In this document: positions 554-26,243 of the stretch, in pieces
Layout: each line of letters opens with the position of its first letter
How positions within the stretch are numbered: position 1 is the first letter of the stretch
Virus record (IMG/VR): IMGVR_UViG_3300031813_000003
Span: 151,975 to 215,974 of that record
DNA: 64,000 nt
Reading direction: 5' to 3' (one strand)
DNA from: a virus
Lineage: Duplodnaviria; Caudoviricetes
Program-made: the position numbers and the translations under genes
The notes under the pieces: model-generated
What the model was told of the DNA's origin: nothing
Databases searched by the model: none
Seen by the model: only the letters and a program-made list of their open reading frames with translations

Positions 554-721
554 ATGAATACTGTGTATGAAATTCGGGTCTGGTTGCCTAAACAAGGCAA
601 TAAGATTGCATTAGTTAATGCGTCAAATCCAGAAGAAGCATATCAACTTATTGAAGATTTTGTAATACAACAATTTCAAAATGACAGAATAACATTAGTA
701 GATTTAAAGGATGAACGATAG
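554..721 (+). CDS. hypothetical protein (ends TAG; possible read-through to 775)
   Basis: ATG abuts the previous stop; 55 codons open. Confidence 0.5.
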   Translation: MNTVYEIRVWLPKQGNKIALVNASNPEEAYQLIEDFVIQQFQNDRITLVDLKDER

Positions 722-758
722 ACGTTCACCTATTTCAACAGTAAGGGAGTCTTACGTT

Positions 759-2297
759 ATGAATGTAGTATTTAATGCAGTAGGCAAAGATATTGTAAAA
801 GCGTTTCCAGCTGGGTTTACTTATAAAACAGAAGATGGTTCTGTTTTATTCAGTCCTTGGGTATCCTACCCTAATCAACGAATTTGGAATGAGAATAACC
901 TGTTACTCAAAGTAGATTCTTATAAGCCAAGTCATGCACCCTGTTATCCTCCTGATGCAGATGCAATGGAATCTTACATCGAAGCAAGAGCAGGAGATCA
1001 CCTTCTGTTTTTCGGTCTTCAGATGTACATCCAGAAGTATCTGATGACTCCTATCTCCCAAGCAGATATCGATGAAGCTGTAGATTTCTTTGCACTTCAT
1101 GGTGAGCCTTTCGATAAAGAAATGTGGCAACACATTTTTGACACTTACAACGGGTTTATTCCTGTTGTGATTTCTGCAATCCCTGAAGGAACTGTAGTCC
1201 CTAACCGAAATATCATTGCAAAGATTTCTTGCACTGATAAGAAATGCTTCAGTGTAGCTTCTTATCTTGAAACTTCGTTCCTCAGAGGGGTATGGTATCC
1301 ATCGTCTACAGGAACTATTAGTTATGACTGCCGTGTAGAAATCAAAAAATACATGGAACTGACTGCTGACTCTCTTGAAGGACTTAACTTCAAACTACAC
1401 AGCTTTGCTGGTAGGGGTGTTAGTTCCAGTGAATCTGCAGCACTTGGTGATGCTGGTCATATGGCAACTGGTGCAATGGGGTCTGACACTGTAGAAGGGG
1501 TCATACGGGCAAATAATGCCTATGGGTGTACCGGTGGTATGTCTGCATTCTCTATCCCTGCTACAGAGCATTCTACGATTACCAGTTGGGGGAAAGAAAA
1601 CGAGGCAGCTGCATATAAAAACTTCCTCGACAAATATCTTCTGCCTGGAAAAATCTGTGCATGTGTCTCTGACTCCTATGACATCATGGAAGCATGTGAC
1701 ATTTGGGGAACAATTCATAAAGATCAGATTGTGAATTCTGGTGGAACATTAGTTGTTCGTCCTGATTCTGGTGAACCAGCACCTACGGTTCTTGCTGTAG
1801 TTGAACGTCTGGAAAAGTATTTTGGAACTACTGTAAACTCCAAAGGTTATAAAGTTCTCCCTGATTGTATCAGGGTTATCCAAGGTGATGGAATTAACAG
1901 GAATGCTATTGTGGAAATCCTCCAGCTGCTTATGTGGAAAGGATATTCTGCTGACAACGTTGCCTTTGGTATGGGTGGAGCATTACTTCAACATGTAAAC
2001 CGTGATACCTTTGGTTTCGTTATGAAGTGTTGCGCAATCAGGATTGGTGGAGTTTGGGTTGATGTGTTCAAGGAAGCTCCAGGCAAGAACAGTAAGAAAG
2101 GTAGACTTGAACTGATTCAGTACCCTGATAGAACCTATGAAACTATCAGGGTTGAAGATATCCGTTGGGTTGATAACAAGATGGAAGGTAAGAAAGTACT
2201 TGAAATCGCTTACCAATTGGTAAAACAGGGAAACTTCTATTACCCTGTTTACCGTCACCAAGATTTGGATGATGTTCGTGAACGTGCAAATCGTTAA
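759..2297 (+). CDS. nadV: nicotinamide phosphoribosyltransferase (NAMPT/NadV family)
   Basis: DSYKxSH, PATEHS, VSDSYD, VVRPDSG, IQGDGI and FGMGGALLQ motifs; SD AAGGGAG before ATG 759. Confidence 0.93.
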   Translation: MNVVFNAVGKDIVKAFPAGFTYKTEDGSVLFSPWVSYPNQRIWNENNLLLKVDSYKPSHAPCYPPDADAMESYIEARAGDHLLFFGLQMYIQKYLMTPISQADIDEAVDFFALHGEPFDKEMWQHIFDTYNGFIPVVISAIPEGTVVPNRNIIAKISCTDKKCFSVASYLETSFLRGVWYPSSTGTISYDCRVEIKKYMELTADSLEGLNFKLHSFAGRGVSSSESAALGDAGHMATGAMGSDTVEGVIRANNAYGCTGGMSAFSIPATEHSTITSWGKENEAAAYKNFLDKYLLPGKICACVSDSYDIMEACDIWGTIHKDQIVNSGGTLVVRPDSGEPAPTVLAVVERLEKYFGTTVNSKGYKVLPDCIRVIQGDGINRNAIVEILQLLMWKGYSADNVAFGMGGALLQHVNRDTFGFVMKCCAIRIGGVWVDVFKEAPGKNSKKGRLELIQYPDRTYETIRVEDIRWVDNKMEGKKVLEIAYQLVKQGNFYYPVYRHQDLDDVRERANR

Positions 2298-6445: not shown

Positions 6446-6518
6446 TACAAACTGAATCCTTTTTGGAGCAATAAATAAAGTTGAAGTTGACTAAAATTTA
6501 TTGCTTCAAAAGGATTTT

Positions 6519-8006
6519 ATGCCAAAGATTTATGTACTTGACACAAATGTTCTGCTCTTAGATGGAAACGCAATCAACAAATTCGAAGAAAACATCGTAG
6601 TTATCCCTCAACCTGTTCTAAATGAAATTGACAAACACAAAAAAGACCCTGATGGTGAGATTAGATACAATTCTAGACAGTTCTCTAGGAACGTAGATGA
6701 ATTAAGGAAACAAGGAAGTCTATCAAATGGTGTTCAGCTAAATGATCAAGGTGGAATGCTGTATGTAACTCTATTTGATGATAATGTAGCTTCATTATTA
6801 CCCTTCCAAGATATGTCCTATATGGACAACCGTATCCTTGCTTGCGCTTTATATGTTCAAAAAAATAACTTTTGTGAATTAGGTGAAGAAGTATATGAGG
6901 TTGTCATTGTTTCTAATGATACCAACATGCGTATTCTTGCTGATATTTTTGGTCTTCAAGCTGAAGACTATAAAAATTCTAAAGTACAAAGTGATGAACT
7001 ATACACAGGGATTCAACATATCTATGTTGACCAACAGTGTATTGACTTGATGTATACCCTAGGAAAATTCGATCTAGCTGATGCTCAACCATTCTTAGAT
7101 GATTCACATTTGGGGGTTTCATTTAATATTACTGATGAATATATATCATATGTACCTTCCCCAAATGAATGTTTTGTATTTCATTCTCTATCAAATACAA
7201 AACAAAGTGCGTTGACTAGGTACAACTCTGTAATGAAAGAGTTTAGAGTACTTCCACAAGATATGAAAACTTGTGATGCTCTTCCACGTAGTGCTGAACA
7301 AGCATTCGCATTGGATATTCTTAAAGACCCTGAAGTATGCTTAGTATCTCTTAACGCCAAGGCAGGGTGTGGTAAAACTTTCTTAGCCCTAGCTGCTGCA
7401 ATACATGGTGTGATGGAAACCCATACATACAACAAAATCCTACTTTTAAAGCCTATTGTGCCAATGGATAATAGTCATGAGCTAGGATTCCTCCCAGGAG
7501 GTCTAGACGAGAAGCTTGGACCTTGGATGGCATCTTATGCAGACAACATCGAACAGATAATGTCCAAGTATATCAAAGAAGATGGATATGACAAAGGGAA
7601 GAAACCAAAGAACAAGAAAGAAGAAAAGCAACAAGATGATTACTTTGAGAAACAACAAGGTAAAACTAGCCCTATTCAGGAAATGATTGCTTTAGGATTG
7701 CTTGAATTTGGATCACTAGAGCATGCTAGAGGGCGAAACTGGAGCAACACATACGTCATCATAGATGAAGGACAAAATACCAGTAAAAGCACAATGAAGA
7801 CCATTCTGACACGTATTGGGGAAGGATCAAAGATTGTAGTTATGGGTGACCCTAGCCAGATAGATTCTCCATACCTTGACAGTAAGAGTAATGGACTTGT
7901 GATAGTTCAAGACCTTTTTAGATCATCTGACCTAGCAGGGCATATCACCCTAACAAAATCTGAAAGAAGTAAACTTGCAGAACTAGCAGCTGAACTACTA
8001 AACTAA
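6519..8006 (+). CDS. phoH: PIN-domain PhoH-family ATPase
   Basis: YVLDTNVLL PIN motif; AKAGCGKT Walker A; RGR, IIDEGQN, GDPSQID, SERS. Confidence 0.92.
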   Translation: MPKIYVLDTNVLLLDGNAINKFEENIVVIPQPVLNEIDKHKKDPDGEIRYNSRQFSRNVDELRKQGSLSNGVQLNDQGGMLYVTLFDDNVASLLPFQDMSYMDNRILACALYVQKNNFCELGEEVYEVVIVSNDTNMRILADIFGLQAEDYKNSKVQSDELYTGIQHIYVDQQCIDLMYTLGKFDLADAQPFLDDSHLGVSFNITDEYISYVPSPNECFVFHSLSNTKQSALTRYNSVMKEFRVLPQDMKTCDALPRSAEQAFALDILKDPEVCLVSLNAKAGCGKTFLALAAAIHGVMETHTYNKILLLKPIVPMDNSHELGFLPGGLDEKLGPWMASYADNIEQIMSKYIKEDGYDKGKKPKNKKEEKQQDDYFEKQQGKTSPIQEMIALGLLEFGSLEHARGRNWSNTYVIIDEGQNTSKSTMKTILTRIGEGSKIVVMGDPSQIDSPYLDSKSNGLVIVQDLFRSSDLAGHITLTKSERSKLAELAAELLN

Positions 8007-15738: not shown

Positions 15739-15818
15739 GCGGGTAGCACTTAGGCATGAGGTATGTCAGTAGCCTTCCAAGCTATCGTTAAGGTGTTCGA
15801 TTCACCCTATCCGCTCCA
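15739..15818 (+). tRNA. tRNA-Gly(TCC)
   Basis: GTAGC CTTCCAA GCTAT; TCCA end. Confidence 0.85.
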
Positions 15819-17247: not shown

Positions 17248-17333
17248 TCCCTAGTGGTGAAATGGCAGCCACAGCACACTGTTAATGTGCCGCAGAAATG
17301 CAATTGTTCGTTCAAGTCGGACCTAGGGAGCCA
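17248..17333 (+). tRNA. tRNA-Asn(GTT), long variable arm
   Basis: GCACA CTGTTAA TGTGC; GCA-GAAA-TGC arm. Confidence 0.85.
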
Positions 17334-17350
17334 AAAATTAAATAGAACAT

Positions 17351-17443
17351 TCCCTCGTACTCTAACTGGCAAGAGGAACGGCTGTTAACCGTTTGTAATC
17401 CACCTTGAGTGGTATCCCTGTTCGACTCAGGGCGAGGGAGCCA
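17351..17443 (+). tRNA. tRNA-Asn(GTT), long variable arm
   Basis: AACGG CTGTTAA CCGTT; CCAC/GTGG arm. Confidence 0.85.
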
Positions 17444-17444
17444 A

Positions 17445-17517
17445 TTTTGTGTAGTGTAGCGGTAGCACACTTGCCGCATTAAGGTGAGAAGGTCAGGTTC
17501 GAATCCTGACATAAGAG
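17445..17517 (+). tRNA. tRNA-like, anticodon ATT (Asn-like), no encoded CCA
   Basis: Canonical D and T arms; loop GCATTAA. Confidence 0.6.
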
Positions 17518-20175: not shown

Positions 20176-20270
20176 GGAGGGTTAACTGTACAAGCGTGAC
20201 AGACCTGCCTTGAAAGCAACGTGAACGTGCTAAGACCACGTTTGGGGTGCAAGTCCTCAGCCCTCTTCCA
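20176..20270 (+). tRNA. tRNA-Ser(TGA)
   Basis: CTTGAAA loop; long variable arm. Confidence 0.8.
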
Positions 20271-20983: not shown

Positions 20984-21080
20984 AAGTCATTCAGTCATGT
21001 GCGTTCTAGATCGTAGGTCTGTGGAGACTACACATGTTACTTAACCGTTCAAATCGGTGAGTCGAATCTAGGGATGATTT
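20984..21080 (+). ncRNA. non-tRNA structured RNA with a T-arm
   Basis: AAGTCATTC/GGATGATTT closing stem; ACCG-TTCAAAT-CGGT. Confidence 0.45.
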
Positions 21081-21090
21081 ACAAATTAAT

Positions 21091-21173
21091 AGGTGCGTAG
21101 GTTTTAATGTCAAAGGTTGGCAGACAGACTCCAAATCTGTTACCAAGGGGTTCGATTCCTCACGTTCCTGCCA
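21091..21173 (+). tRNA. tRNA-Trp(CCA)
   Basis: ACAGA CTCCAAA TCTGT. Confidence 0.85.
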
Positions 21174-21244: not shown

Positions 21245-21319
21245 GTCCCTTTGGTGAAATGGAAATCACAGAACGCTACGAACGTTCAGGTCTAGGTTCA
21301 ATTCCTAGTTGGGATACCA
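21245..21319 (+). tRNA. tRNA-Arg(ACG)
   Basis: GAACG CTACGAA CGTTC. Confidence 0.87.
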
Positions 21320-21834: not shown

Positions 21835-21922
21835 GTCCCTTGTTCCTGAACTAACCTCCTAAGTTAGTGACGTTAAATCTCAGGGTGGAAGTCGAGCAGT
21901 TCAAGTCTGCCAAGGGATTCCA
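21835..21922 (+). tRNA. D-armless, pseudoknotted tRNA-Arg(CCT)-like RNA
   Basis: ACTAAC CTCCTAA GTTAGT immediately after the acceptor strand; T-arm and TCCA present. Confidence 0.7.
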
Positions 21923-21931
21923 AAATTAAAT

Positions 21932-22020
21932 GCCGCTAGTCTCCTGCACACACCTTCTAAGCGTATGACTTTAACTAGTAGGATGGAAGTCAAGAAGTTC
22001 AAATCTTCCTAGCGGTTCCA
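21932..22020 (+). tRNA. D-armless, pseudoknotted tRNA-Arg(TCT)-like RNA
   Basis: CTTCTAA loop; same architecture as its neighbour. Confidence 0.7.
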
Positions 22021-22025
22021 TAAAT

Positions 22026-22100
22026 GCCTCATAAACATTGATAGTGATGCCCTGTTTTGTAATCAGGTTTAAGTGGGTGCGATTCCTACATGAGGCTCCA
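22026..22100 (+). tRNA. tRNA-Thr(TGT)
   Basis: TTTGTAA loop; TCCA. Confidence 0.8.
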
Positions 22101-22109
22101 AAGTAAAAT

Positions 22110-22197
22110 GCCGGTTTCGCATAGTTGGTCGATTGCACCTGACTTGTAATCAGGAATGGAAACTACACCGCAGGTTCGAATCCTGTGACCGGCTCCA
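22110..22197 (+). tRNA. tRNA-Thr(TGT), long variable region
   Basis: CCTGA CTTGTAA TCAGG. Confidence 0.87.
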
Positions 22198-22223: not shown

Positions 22224-22883
22224 ATGAATCTCTATGATTACCTAGGGATAGCACTTCTGAATGATAGTAGTCCTGAGACAGTTAAGACTAAACTATATTG
22301 CTTGTGCCATGATATTCCTTACAAAATGTACAATAAAAATCAAATTATAGATTCAAACTTTGTTCCTGTTGGTGGAAGTGTTGAATGGTGTCAGAAACAA
22401 TTAGGTTATTCTATTATACCTGATTACTATCCTTCATGGCTAAATATTTATATTAGTAGAAATATTTGGTATGCTGATAAATGGGATTTTATTGGTAAAC
22501 ATATTTTTATAAAGCCTAGTGACAAGTACAAAAGATTCACAGGGTTTATCACTACTGGAACTTATAGTAAAAAGCGTAAGCCTCCATTTATGTGTTCATC
22601 TGTAGTAAAGTTTATAGATGAATTTCGGTATTACATTTCAAATGGTGAAGTTCTATCTGCTGATTGGTACTATGGTGAAGAGAAGACTATTATAGCACCA
22701 AAAATATCTTTTGATGCCATTACACCTATTGGATTTTGTGGTGCTGTAGATATTGGTATTTTAGATAATGGAGAATATGAACTGATTGAAGTTCAGCATC
22801 CTTTTGCTTGTGGTTGGTATGGTGATGATATAGCACTATACATACAATGGTGTATTGATGGGTGGAAATATATGAAAAAATAG
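22224..22883 (+). CDS. ATP-grasp (R2K/DUF4343-like) protein
   Basis: FIKP...K.FTG, EFR, VDIG...IEV. Confidence 0.75.
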   Translation: MNLYDYLGIALLNDSSPETVKTKLYCLCHDIPYKMYNKNQIIDSNFVPVGGSVEWCQKQLGYSIIPDYYPSWLNIYISRNIWYADKWDFIGKHIFIKPSDKYKRFTGFITTGTYSKKRKPPFMCSSVVKFIDEFRYYISNGEVLSADWYYGEEKTIIAPKISFDAITPIGFCGAVDIGILDNGEYELIEVQHPFACGWYGDDIALYIQWCIDGWKYMKK

Positions 22884-22898: not shown

Positions 22899-23396
22899 AT
22901 GTCTGCCACGCAAATTGTACTATTAGATCAGTCGTATAACTTTTTGAACTTGATTACTATCAAGAAAGCTGTTCGTCTTATGGTAAAAGATAAAGTAGAA
23001 GTAATCAAGTCTACTGATAGAGAATTACGTTGCGGATTTTTCTTGCCTAAAGTTCTTAGACTACTTAAGCATATTAACACTAATCTATCCAAAAAGATTC
23101 CATTCTCTAAGCAGAATATCTTTGTAAGGGATGATTATACTTGTCAGTATTGTGGTAAAGTATTGAATGCAAAAACAGCAACAGTGGATCATATAGTTCC
23201 CCAGGCTAAAGGTGGTAAAAACTCTTACGCTAACTGTGTTTGTAGTTGTAAGACTTGTAACCAATGGAAAGCTGATAAGCATCTACACGAAACCAGTATG
23301 AAACTTCGTAGAGTGCCACAACATCCATCATTCCTTGAGTTCATGTATCTCAAAGCCAAATCATTTGGTATTGACATGAAAGCCATATTTAACTAA
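22899..23396 (+). CDS. HNH endonuclease (McrA-like)
   Basis: RDDYTCQYCG...TVDHIVP...GG...N...C..CN..K. Confidence 0.9.
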   Translation: MSATQIVLLDQSYNFLNLITIKKAVRLMVKDKVEVIKSTDRELRCGFFLPKVLRLLKHINTNLSKKIPFSKQNIFVRDDYTCQYCGKVLNAKTATVDHIVPQAKGGKNSYANCVCSCKTCNQWKADKHLHETSMKLRRVPQHPSFLEFMYLKAKSFGIDMKAIFN

Positions 23397-23400
23397 ACAG

Positions 23401-23475
23401 TTTGCCTTAGTACAACGTTAGAGTATTCTTCCCGTTATAGGAAGCGATTCAAGGTTCAAGCCCTTGAAGGCAAAC
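23401..23475 (+). pseudogene. tRNA-like sequence with TTA at the anticodon position, no CCA
   Basis: CTTCC CGTTATA GGAAG; T-arm intact. Confidence 0.45.
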
Positions 23476-23792
23476 CTCTCTTGCCCTCCAAAATAAAATG
23501 TAAATTTAAATTGACAAAAACATATCCTTTTGGTAAAGTTACTTTACGTTATTTAAACCCAAAGGAGATTTATCATTAAAACTGAATCCTTGATGCGGAA
23601 AGCACTTCGTGTAGTTGAAATGACTTTTCAACCTGAAACAGGGCTGAAAAAGCTACAATGCGAGAAGTTGATGACGCAATCATCAGAGCAGAAAAAGATG
23701 GAATCAAAGTTGAATGGGAACAAAATAAAATTGACAATCAAAAAGAACTTTACTAAGATGTTCTTACTACAAACGAACTAAGGAGATTATAA

Positions 23793-26168: not shown

Positions 26169-26243
26169 GCGCCTATAGTTCATTGGCAGAACAAGGCACT
26201 CTAAATGCTTGTGTAGTTGGTTCGATCCTAACTAGGCGCACCA
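26169..26243 (+). tRNA. amber suppressor tRNA (anticodon CTA)
   Basis: GCGCCTA/TAGGCGC ACCA; AGGCA CTCTAAA TGCTT; canonical D and T arms. Confidence 0.9.

What the first reader, a model, noticed from the sequence alone, without database searches (positions are those of the whole stretch)
21835..22020. Two tandem D-armless tRNA-Arg (CCT, TCT) with a shared pseudoknot in place of the D-arm
Seen: both have an 8-bp acceptor-like stem, a canonical T-arm (TTCAA loop) and TCCA, but the anticodon hairpin follows only ~7 nt after the acceptor strand. That linker (TCCTGA / TCCTGC) is complementary to the loop of a long variable arm (TCAGGG / GTAGGA) closed by GAC...GAAGTC, and a D-loop-like TGGAA lies there. 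The pairing covaries between the two copies. Inference: the D-domain is rebuilt from the variable region, giving a non-cloverleaf tRNA topology for AGA/AGG decoding or a nuclease-resistant mimic.
Basis: partly seen in the sequence, partly recalled or inferred. Interest (0 to 1): 0.75.

Follow-up and report, generated by a model that had tools for sequence, protein, structure and literature searches.

The report
Two rewired, pseudoknotted phage arginine tRNAs
These two neighbouring genes of a 216-kb phage very probably encode arginine tRNAs (for AGG and AGA) that cannot fold as the textbook cloverleaf, because half of the D-arm lies behind the anticodon arm and pairs back across it as a pseudoknot; many unrelated phages, cultured ones included, share the design, and gene finders miss it.

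Summary
At 21835-21922 (anticodon CCT) and 21932-22020 (TCT) lie two tRNA-like genes. Each has an 8-bp acceptor stem, a 4-bp T stem with a TTCAA loop, an encoded CCA and a 7-nt anticodon loop. There is no D hairpin. ARAGORN and Rfam's tRNA model miss both.

The 7-8 nt linker pairs with a strand in the 27-nt variable region (helix S1). A short helix GAC/GTC (S2) crosses S1, which makes a pseudoknot.

I found 16 further homologues:
- Five come from metagenomic phage contigs.
- Eleven come from cultured or deposited phages. These include E. coli O157 phage Av-05, Acinetobacter phages KARL-1, ME3 and phiAB441, a large Vibrio phage group, and Aeromonas, Salicola and Nitrincola phages.

On structure-blind alignments S1 is paired in 90 of 90 cells, with compensatory changes at 4 of 5 pairs. 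S2 covaries too.

In every phage tRNA set I examined, no ordinary tRNA-Arg(UCU) is present. AGA plus AGG make up 70% of this phage's arginine codons.

Function as a working tRNA-Arg is inferred, not shown. I found no paper describing this fold. Earlier agents of this scan have reported the same family on other DNA.

The parts
21835..21922 (+). Rewired tRNA-Arg gene 1, anticodon CCT (reads AGG), 88 nt with encoded CCA
   Evidence: Read. Missed by ARAGORN and by Rfam tRNA even at E<=10. Scores 98.4 bits with family model R2.
21835..21842 (+). Gene 1 acceptor 5' strand (8 nt); pairs with 21911-21918
   Evidence: The acceptor helix is 97.9% paired, and 7 of 8 pairs show changes on both sides.
21844..21849 (+). 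Gene 1 helix S1, 5' strand (TCCTGA). It plays the part of the D-stem 3' strand and runs straight into A21850 and the anticodon stem.
   Evidence: Pairs with 21880-21885. S1 core is 100% paired in 18 sequences, with 4 of 5 pairs changed on both sides. RNAalifold predicts it independently.
21851..21867 (+). Gene 1 anticodon arm: 5-bp stem, loop CTCCTAA, anticodon CCT at 21858-21860
   Evidence: All 5 stem pairs covary.
21869..21871 (+). Gene 1 helix S2, 5' strand (GAC); pairs with GTC at 21891-21893 and crosses S1 (pseudoknot)
   Evidence: S2 middle pair is A-U, U-A or G-C in group A. In group B the pairs are C-G/G-C, A-U/C-G and U-G/U-A.
21872..21879 (+). Gene 1 A-rich connecting loop (GTTAAATC) with the conserved TAA(A) motif
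   Evidence: Alignments.
21880..21885 (+). Gene 1 helix S1, 3' strand (TCAGGG). It plays the part of the D-stem 5' strand.
21886..21890 (+). Gene 1 D-loop-like TGGAA (GGA invariant in all 18 members)
   Evidence: The same ..TGGAA motif forms the D-loop of ordinary tRNA-Arg genes in the same phages.
21896..21910 (+). Gene 1 T arm: 4-bp stem, loop TTCAAGT
21932..22020 (+). Rewired tRNA-Arg gene 2, anticodon TCT (reads AGA, and AGG by wobble), 89 nt with encoded CCA. Layout: acceptor 21932-21939 with 22009-22016; S1 21942-21947 with 21978-21983; anticodon arm 21949-21965 (anticodon 21956-21958); S2 21967-21969 with 21989-21991; TGGAA 21984-21988; T arm 21994-22008.
   Evidence: Scores 90.9 bits with R2. 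The anticodon stem has two A.C mismatches.

Best explanation
Both genes encode arginine tRNAs of a conserved, phage-borne family whose core is wired differently from the cloverleaf.

Chain path:
1. After an 8-bp acceptor stem and 1-3 linker nucleotides, the chain runs down one strand of a 5-6 bp helix (S1). An invariant A follows, which resembles position 26. The chain then enters a normal 5-bp anticodon stem with a 7-nt loop (U33, anticodon UCU or CCU, A37 A38).
2. On leaving the anticodon arm it forms the first strand of a short helix (S2) and then an A-rich loop.
3. It climbs back as the second strand of S1.
4. It makes a short loop with an invariant GGA, closes S2, and enters a 4-bp T stem with a normal T loop. 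The acceptor 3' strand, the discriminator and CCA follow.

S1 and S2 cross, so the fold is a pseudoknot.

Inferred: S1 stacked on the anticodon stem replaces the D stem. The GGA loop replaces D-loop G18 G19 A20. That would supply the elbow contact with the T loop and the main ArgRS identity base, so the RNA would still form an L shape. The host ArgRS would charge it, and it would read AGA and AGG, the phage's main arginine codons.

Shown: the sequence elements, the two covarying crossing helices, the conservation across unrelated phages, and the absence of an ordinary tRNA-Arg(UCU) wherever the family member is present.

Inferred: expression, processing, charging with arginine, use on the ribosome, and the three-dimensional mimicry.
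For: Fold:
- S1 is paired in 100% of 90 cells on a structure-blind alignment of 18 members. Pair types are CG/UA/AU/GU at one position and AU/GC/UA/GU at another.
- S2 covaries within group A (AU, UA, GC) and within group B (CG/GC 4:4).
- Cognate strands form longer helices than strands swapped between members: S1 5.2 against 3.8 bp, S2 4.1 against 2.9 bp.
- RNAalifold finds S1 unaided.

Family:
- R2 scores are 47-105 bits for the 18 members used in the covariation alignment, against at most 22 bits for ordinary tRNAs.
- 347 phage records match the Av-05 copy by blastn.
- The carriers share few proteins, at about 30-40% identity.

tRNA character:
- The anticodon-loop bases U33, C35, U36, A37 and A38 are invariant, and position 34 is U in 17 members and C in the window's first gene.
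- The G-C pair closing the T loop is invariant, and CCA is encoded in most members.

Arginine identity:
- C35 and U36 are present, the discriminator is U, G or A, and a GGA motif is present. Bacterial determinants are A20, C35, U/G36 and A/G/U73 (PMC9976931).
- Gene 1 shares its acceptor 5' strand GTCCCTT and its G1-U72 pair with the phage's ordinary tRNA-Arg(ACG). The D-loop of that tRNA reads AATGGAAA.

Slot filling:
- G000, G006 (28 tRNAs) and G007 (46 tRNAs) lack an ordinary Arg-UCU.
- The tRNA-cluster stretches examined in Av-05, KARL-1, ME3 and Vibrio 70E35.2 have no called Arg tRNA at all.
- The close relative L002 has an ordinary Arg-TCT at the same place, upstream of Thr-TGT.

Demand and meaning:
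- AGA is 49% and AGG 21% of arginine codons.
- AGA/AGG codons of the capsid gene align with CGT-Arg or Lys in relatives.
- The two copies differ by compensatory changes in 3 acceptor pairs, so both were kept paired after duplication.
Against: - No expression, processing or charging data exist.
- The TCT copy has two A.C mismatches in its 5-bp anticodon stem, and its score is the lower of the window's two copies, so it may be impaired.
- In several members the last one or two A of the GGAA loop can pair into an extended S2. The A20/A21 analogy is therefore not exact.
- The G8-C pair that defines the 8/4 layout is invariant, so covariation cannot test it.
- Folding energies are not better than shuffles.
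- An artificial D-armless tRNA is degraded by PNPase in E. coli (PMC11551756), so stability is a concern.
- An earlier check in this scan priced the bold reading of a related rewired phage tRNA claim at only 55/100.
Confidence: 0.7

Rival explanations
1. The RNA has the fold described but is a mimic or decoy rather than a translating tRNA. It would soak up or block a host tRNA-targeting defence nuclease that attacks tRNA-Arg, or serve some other non-translational tRNA-like role.
For: - Phage tRNAs are known to counter anticodon nucleases and retron effectors (PMC10264068 and PMC11555353, listed).
- The invariant anticodon loop would also be what a nuclease recognises.
- The odd core could make the RNA a poor ribosome substrate.
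- HNH cassettes lie next to some members, which suggests mobile accessory cargo.
Against: - A decoy would not need an EF-Tu-length 12-bp acceptor/T branch, encoded CCA, a canonical T loop and a GGA motif, all conserved.
- The gene is present exactly where the ordinary tRNA-Arg(UCU) is missing from otherwise broad tRNA sets.
- A CCU paralogue has arisen that matches the second AGR codon.
Confidence: 0.14
2. It is a working tRNA but is charged with another amino acid. An example is serine through the long variable region, as in allo-tRNAs, so that AGA/AGG would be partly recoded.
For: - 8/4 and 9/3 allo-tRNAs with long variable arms accept serine, and some carry AGA/AGG anticodons (PMC5389517).
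- This family has the 8/4 layout and a long variable region.
Against: - AGA/AGG codons of the capsid gene align with CGT-Arg or Lys in relatives, never with Ser.
- The variable region is tied into a pseudoknot and is not a free arm.
- The acceptor stem and the GGA motif resemble the phage's own ordinary tRNA-Arg.
- The discriminator is mostly U, not the G73 that tRNA-Ser carries (listed as an antideterminant against LeuRS and TyrRS in PMC9976931; that SerRS uses G73 is my own recollection).
Confidence: 0.04
3. Only the nested part is real: a long anticodon helix (S1 plus the anticodon stem) with a bulge. In this view the crossing helix S2 does not form, so the RNA is a D-armless three-way junction without a pseudoknot.
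For: - S2 is only 3-6 bp.
- GAC/GTC is invariant in 7 of the 9 group-A members.
- ViennaRNA cannot model S2.
Against: - S2 changes on both sides while staying paired: A-U to U-A (L049) and to G-C (L050); C-G against G-C 4:4 in group B; U-A to G-C between KARL-1 and ME3 in the extended part.
- 95.8-100% of S2 cells are paired.
Confidence: 0.06
4. The two elements are decaying tRNA pseudogenes, and the complementarity is chance.
For: - tRNA finders reject both elements.
- Copy 2 has mismatches in its anticodon stem.
- The array holds several other irregular tRNA-like genes.
Against: - Eighteen members in phages that share almost no proteins keep every helix through compensatory changes. None of 500 shuffles reaches the observed values.
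- The gap in model score to ordinary tRNAs is large.
Confidence: 0.01

Closest known systems
Canonical bacterial and phage tRNA-Arg(UCU/CCU) (class I cloverleaf, Rfam RF00005). Examples here are the ordinary Arg-TCT of relative L002:8831-8907 and the window's own Arg-ACG at 21245-21319.
   Same: - Acceptor stem with CCA, T arm with a T-psi-C-type loop, and an anticodon arm with U33, C35, U36, A37.
- A GGA motif like the Arg D-loop.
- The same genomic slot in a tRNA array.
- Gene 1 even shares the acceptor 5' strand with the window's Arg-ACG.
   Different: - There is no D hairpin. The D-stem-like helix is made of the strand before the anticodon arm and a strand behind it.
- A second helix crosses it.
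- The layout is 8/4 rather than 7/5.
- Length is 85-89 nt.
- RF00005 gives no hit at E<=10.
allo-tRNAs and other (8/4) tRNAs of bacteria and phages (Mukai et al. 2017, PMC5389517)
   Same: - A 12-bp acceptor branch split 8/4.
- A long variable region.
- A longer D-type helix with a very short loop.
- Found in phage tRNA clusters.
- Some allo-tRNAs carry AGA/AGG anticodons.
   Different: - Allo-tRNAs keep a contiguous D stem-loop, so they are still cloverleaves, and a free variable arm used by SerRS.
- No pseudoknot is described for them.
- Here the D helix is split around the anticodon arm, and the variable region is consumed by the pseudoknot.
D-armless mitochondrial tRNA-Ser(AGY/AGN) (bovine, human, Ascaris; PMC7609411, PMC11551756)
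   Same: - No D hairpin between the acceptor and anticodon arms, only a short connector.
- An anticodon for AGN codons in some cases.
   Different: - Mitochondrial forms are truncated (about 60 nt), flexible or Y-shaped, lack the D/T-loop contact, and work with a co-evolved mitochondrial machinery.
- This family is longer than a normal tRNA. It rebuilds a D-like helix and keeps a GG motif.
- It must work with an unadapted bacterial machinery.
Viral tRNA-like structures with pseudoknots (for example the TYMV-type 3' TLS)
   Same: A pseudoknot is used to imitate part of the tRNA L shape in a viral RNA.
   Different: - TLS pseudoknots build the acceptor arm at the 3' end of a plant-virus genome, and TLSs are not decoding adaptors.
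- Here the pseudoknot is in the core of a free-standing gene within a tRNA array.

Membership tests
tRNA (Rfam RF00005, cloverleaf) | Acceptor stem closed by 5' and 3' ends, discriminator and CCA | tested here: met
   The stem is 8 bp and is followed by T and CCA in both genes. The helix covaries.
tRNA (Rfam RF00005, cloverleaf) | T arm with a T-psi-C-type 7-nt loop and a closing G-C pair | tested here: met
   Loops are TTCAAGT and TTCAAAT. The closing G-C is invariant in 18 of 18 members. The stem has 4 bp instead of 5.
tRNA (Rfam RF00005, cloverleaf) | Anticodon arm: 5-bp stem and 7-nt loop with U33 | tested here: met
   Loops are CTCCTAA and CTTCTAA. All five stem pairs covary. Copy 2 has two A.C mismatches.
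tRNA (Rfam RF00005, cloverleaf) | D stem-loop hairpin between the acceptor and anticodon arms | tested here: not met
   Only 8-9 nt separate the two stems, so no hairpin is possible.
tRNA (Rfam RF00005, cloverleaf) | Score at or above the family's gathering threshold | tested here: not met
   There is no RF00005 match even at E<=10. ARAGORN misses both genes in standard, relaxed and mitochondrial modes.
Bacterial tRNA-Arg identity (PMC9976931) | C35 and U36 (or G36) in the anticodon | tested here: met
   The anticodons are CCT and TCT. C35 and U36 are invariant in 18 members.
Bacterial tRNA-Arg identity (PMC9976931) | A20 in the D-loop variable pocket | tested here: inconclusive
   The GGA motif is invariant and stands where a D-loop would follow the D-stem 5' strand. 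It matches the TGGAA D-loops of ordinary Arg tRNAs in these phages. Whether the A occupies the position-20 pocket cannot be told from sequence, and it can pair into S2 in some members.
Bacterial tRNA-Arg identity (PMC9976931) | Discriminator A, G or U at position 73 | tested here: met
   It is U in both window genes and U, G or A in the family.
Bacterial tRNA-Arg identity (PMC9976931) | Aminoacylation with arginine by ArgRS | not testable with these tools
   This needs biochemistry. No phage ArgRS gene (PF00750) is found in 5 records, so the host enzyme would have to do it.
allo-tRNA / (8/4) tRNAs (PMC5389517) | 12-bp acceptor branch split 8/4 | tested here: met
   G8-C pairs in 18 of 18 members. 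The alternative fifth T-stem pair would be A.C in nearly all. The pair is invariant, so it rests on complementarity only.
allo-tRNA / (8/4) tRNAs (PMC5389517) | Contiguous D stem-loop with a long stem and tetraloop | tested here: not met
   The two strands of the D-like helix lie on either side of the anticodon arm.
D-armless mitochondrial tRNAs | D arm replaced by a short unpaired connector in a truncated molecule, without D/T-loop contact | tested here: not met
   The connector is base-paired to a distant strand with covariation. The molecule is 88-89 nt and keeps a GG motif.
   The window genes score 98.4 and 90.9 bits, but both helped train R2 (alignment A6), so they match it by construction. 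The independent support is that eleven further phage copies that were not in the training alignment score 47-92 bits, against at most 22 bits for ordinary tRNAs.
   S1 is 6 bp in both window genes. S2 is 4 bp in gene 1 and up to 6 bp in gene 2.

The most novel reading that the evidence does not exclude
These genes give a fully working arginine tRNA that bacterial ArgRS, EF-Tu and ribosomes accept, although its core is a pseudoknot and not a cloverleaf. That would be the first natural non-cloverleaf tRNA outside mitochondria.

The design would then spread between unrelated phages, partly with homing-endonuclease cassettes. The reason would be that the rewired core escapes a host activity aimed at ordinary tRNA-Arg(UCU), such as a defence nuclease or a decay pathway, while the tRNA still decodes AGA/AGG.
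Probability: 0.3. Interest if true: 0.9.

Novelty: new variant of a known kind. Interest (0 to 1): 0.8.

Why it matters
Textbooks and recent papers state that all bacterial tRNAs are cloverleaves and that arm-less tRNAs occur only in mitochondria (PMC11551756). A conserved, covarying and widespread phage tRNA family that splits the D arm around the anticodon arm would show three things:
- The L shape can be reached by a different topology.
- An unadapted bacterial translation machinery tolerates that topology.
- Standard annotation systematically misses a tRNA that fills the arginine AGA slot in many phage genomes, therapeutic Acinetobacter phages and E. coli phages among them.

The family also offers a natural scaffold for orthogonal tRNA design and a testable case for the idea that phage tRNAs evolve to escape tRNA-targeting defences. 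Because members occur in cultured phages of E. coli and Acinetobacter, the question can be tested directly at the bench.

Tried and rejected
1. Cloverleaf readings. No D hairpin fits in 8-9 nt. Taking the linker and its partner as a D stem leaves no anticodon arm. An intron reading removes the anticodon arm. All three were rejected by inspection.

2. ARAGORN in mitochondrial and relaxed modes finds nothing at the site.

3. A model built from the two window copies alone (R1) found no relatives in 38 loci.

4. Searches by neighbouring proteins found no carriers:
- The capsid protein and its alignment found only two relatives, and neither carries the family.
- R2K ATP-grasp homologues gave 32 viral loci without the family.

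6. A first tight DNA pattern found nothing in viral contigs. Two patterns found nothing in 185,579 prokaryote genomes.

7. L003:8217-8296 is a D-armless Arg-TCT-like gene in the closest complete relative. It lacks S1 and S2 and does not match R2, so it was not counted as a member.

8. L082 (faecal contig) has a 22-nt insert in the T loop and was left out of the covariation counts.

9. Recoding of stop codons was checked because of the CTA and TTA tRNAs. No sign of it was seen.

10. The promoter and terminator scan was uninformative.

11. Five literature searches found no description of this fold: D-armless with bacteriophage; tRNA, pseudoknot, D-arm, phage; non-cloverleaf; phage-encoded tRNAs; allo-tRNA.

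Full report
**Setting**

The window is the last 64 kb of a complete 216-kb IMG/VR myovirus record with 34% G+C. Between about 15.6 and 26.2 kb lies a tRNA array. ARAGORN tRNAs in it, and the only arginine tRNA among them is Arg-ACG. The finding lies inside this array. It sits 6 nt after tRNA-Ile(TAT) and 6 nt before two tRNA-Thr(TGT) genes.

**What is in the sequence**

Both elements (21835-21922 and 21932-22020) have these features:
- An 8-bp acceptor stem beginning with G1-U72, then T and CCA.
- A 4-bp T stem around TTCAAGT or TTCAAAT.
- A 7-nt anticodon loop, CTCCTAA or CTTCTAA.

Only 8-9 nt separate the acceptor strand from the anticodon stem, so a D hairpin cannot form. The linker (TCCTGA, TCCTGC) is complementary to TCAGGG and GTAGGA in the 27-nt region behind the anticodon arm. 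That region also holds TGGAA and is closed by GAC...GTC.

ARAGORN misses both genes in standard, relaxed and mitochondrial modes. Rfam's tRNA model misses both even at E<=10. Minimum-energy folding recovers the acceptor stem, the linker helix and the T stem of copy 1. The energies are not better than shuffles, so energy is not the argument.

**Finding relatives**

Neighbouring proteins led to two related phages.
- L002 has an ordinary tRNA-Arg(TCT) just upstream of Thr-TGT, which is the same slot.
- L003 has a different irregular Arg-TCT-like gene there.

A fixed-spacing DNA pattern found three homologues in metagenome contigs (L045, L046, L047). A relaxed pattern added two in viral contigs (L049, L050). 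Neither pattern hit any of 185,579 prokaryote genomes.

Using these as blastn queries against deposited phage genomes gave many unannotated matches:
- Acinetobacter phages phiAB441, ME3, KARL-1 and other T4-like phages.
- E. coli O157:H7 phage Av-05.
- About 300 Vibrio phage records, most of about 114 kb (the one checked, 70E35.2, is filed under Demerecviridae).
- Aeromonas Aszh-1, Salicola SCTP-2, Nitrincola 1M3-16 and Vibrio 1.063.O.
- An oyster Zobellviridae phage.

In all, 347 records match the Av-05 copy. GenBank shows nothing or 'hypothetical protein' at these sites, even where the adjacent tRNA-Met is annotated.

A covariance model built from seven members (R2) scores the 18 members used below at 47-105 bits. 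Ordinary tRNAs score at most 22 bits. Each of the five cultured genomes searched in full has one copy.

**The fold**

On a structure-blind MAFFT alignment of 18 members (A8), the four nested helices are paired in 98.2% of cells. Slid partners give 40-50%, and none of 500 shuffles reaches any observed measure.

The linker helix S1 has these properties:
- It is paired in 90 of 90 cells.
- It changes on both sides at 4 of its 5 pairs.
- Pair types are CG 10, UA 5, AU 2, GU 1 at one position, and AU 11, GC 4, UA 2, GU 1 at the next.

RNAalifold predicts S1 on its own. It leaves an invariant A unpaired between S1 and the 5-bp anticodon stem, opposite a C or U, much like positions 26 and 44 of a normal tRNA.

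The second helix S2 is GAC/GTC in the window. It becomes GTC/GAC in L049 and GGC/GCC in L050. In the 85-87 nt group B it takes the forms TAC/GTG, TAGC/GCTG, TAGT/ACTG and TCGC/GCGA. On an alignment of that group alone, its pairs show C-G against G-C 4:4, A-U against C-G, and U-G against U-A, with 95.8% of cells paired. KARL-1 and ME3 differ by a U-A to G-C change in an extended S2.

One S2 strand lies inside the S1 span and the other outside it. The two helices therefore cross, and the RNA is a pseudoknot.

**Reading the fold**

The strand that comes from the acceptor stem runs through S1 straight into the anticodon stem, as the D-stem 3' strand does in a cloverleaf. The partner strand runs away from the anticodon stem and is followed by a short loop with an invariant GGA, as the D-stem 5' strand is followed by the D-loop.

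The ordinary arginine tRNAs of these same phages have D-loops reading AATGGAAA, AGTGGAA, AACGGAA and AACTGGATA. The window's Arg-ACG also shares its acceptor 5' strand GTCCCTT and its G1-U72 pair with gene 1.

I therefore read the family as a tRNA-Arg in which the D-stem 5' strand and the D-loop have been moved behind the anticodon arm. S2 ties the insert into the variable-loop position.

The GG contact with the T loop and the role of the A as identity base A20 are inferences. A20, C35, U/G36 and A/G/U73 are the bacterial determinants (PMC9976931). In some members the trailing A residues can instead pair into S2.

**Is it a working tRNA?**

Direct evidence is lacking. The indirect evidence is consistent:
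- The anticodon loop is invariant apart from position 34 (U in 17 members, C in the window's first gene) and position 32 (G in one member), while every stem drifts by compensatory change.
- The acceptor plus T branch keeps the 12 bp that EF-Tu recognises (PMC5389517). CCA is encoded in most members.
- The gene is present where the ordinary tRNA-Arg(UCU) is missing. G006 has 28 tRNAs including Arg-TCG. G007 has 46 including Arg-CCT and Arg-TCG. The window phage has only Arg-ACG. The tRNA-cluster stretches examined in Av-05 (14 tRNAs), KARL-1, ME3 and Vibrio 70E35.2 (18 tRNAs) have no called arginine tRNA at all.
- AGA and AGG are 49% and 21% of arginine codons in the window phage. In the capsid gene they align with CGT-Arg or Lys in relatives, so they still mean arginine.
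- No phage ArgRS gene is present, so the host enzyme would have to charge the RNA.
- The carriers share few proteins, at 30-40% identity, whereas the RNAs show about 72% mean column identity. HNH endonuclease genes lie directly beside the gene in L047 and phiAB441, and 880 nt downstream in the window. This fits horizontal spread, but I did not test it further.

**Caveats for this window**

The TCT copy has two A.C mismatches in its anticodon stem, and its family score is the lower of the window's two copies. The CCT copy is fully paired. The two copies differ by compensatory changes in three acceptor pairs, which argues that both were maintained after duplication.

**Comparison with what is known**

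- 8/4 and 9/3 allo-tRNAs, and 8/4 tRNA-Ser and tRNA-His of phages, share the acceptor/T split and the long variable region. They keep a contiguous D stem-loop (PMC5389517).
- D-armless tRNAs are known only from mitochondria. There they are truncated and flexible (PMC7609411; PMC11551756).
- PMC11551756 states that all known bacterial tRNAs are cloverleaves and that natural arm-less tRNAs exist only in mitochondria.
- My literature searches found no description of this fold.

**Earlier notes of this scan**

I consulted these after my own analysis. They show that other agents have reported the same family on other phage DNA since October 2026, with the same reading. One later check kept the observation, at 93/100. 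It priced the bold reading of a related rewired phage tRNA claim, worded there for a tyrosine tRNA, at 55/100.

**Verdict**

- The pseudoknotted, non-cloverleaf fold is about as well supported as sequence comparison allows (my confidence is about 0.95).
- Function as a tRNA-Arg for AGA/AGG is the best explanation (about 0.7). A decoy role is the main rival.

Noticed in passing
window 15739-15818, 20176-20270, 21070-21173, 22026-22100: Four further tRNA-like genes have perfect acceptor stems, T arms and CCA but are not called by ARAGORN. Their anticodon loops suggest Gly-TCC (odd D region), Ser-TGA (long variable arm), Trp-CCA and a second Thr-TGT. The Thr-TGT copy scores 26.9 bits with Rfam, just under the threshold of 29.
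   Followed up: partly
window 23402-23476 and 26169-26243: Two tRNAs carry anticodons TTA and CTA, which would read the stop codons TAA and TAG. Treating any stop codon as sense does not lengthen the largest ORFs, so there is no sign of recoding. CTA tRNAs also occur in G006, G007 and Acinetobacter phage KARL-1.
   Followed up: partly
window 22110-22197; L003:8862-8947: tRNA-Thr(TGT) has a normal D arm but a 15-nt variable region containing ATGGAAA. It is conserved in the relative L003, and at about 79% identity in a 636-kb uncultured phage (LR756504).
   Followed up: no
L003:8217-8296: The closest complete relative has a different irregular Arg-TCT-like gene in the same slot upstream of Thr-TGT. 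It has a 7/5 layout, an 8-nt linker, a D-arm-like hairpin (GTGT-AATTGG-ACAC) behind the anticodon arm, and no CCA. Family model R2 does not match it. The other relative, L002, has an ordinary Arg-TCT there.
   Followed up: partly
L045:3293-3375; L046:2556-2670: More irregular tRNA-like genes follow directly after the rewired Arg gene in two metagenomic phages. One has a 7-bp stem with a 4-nt loop where the anticodon arm should be. The other is about 115 nt long.
   Followed up: no
window 22899-23396; L047:1161-1706 (-); L072:1600-2133: HNH homing-type endonuclease genes (Pfam HNH_5, HNH_3, NUMOD4) lie directly next to the rewired tRNA gene in two other phages and 880 nt downstream in the window. 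This hints that the gene travels with mobile endonuclease cassettes.
   Followed up: partly
window 17248-17333, 17351-17443, 17445-17517: Three tRNA-Asn-type genes stand in a row. Two have unusually long variable regions (86 and 93 nt). One has anticodon ATT and no CCA.
   Followed up: no
window 711-2297, 6501-8006, 22224-22883: Three auxiliary genes flank the array: nicotinamide phosphoribosyltransferase, a PhoH-like protein and an R2K-clade ATP-grasp protein. The ATP-grasp protein has 318 homologues at E<=0.001 in the genome and metagenome protein collection.
   Followed up: partly
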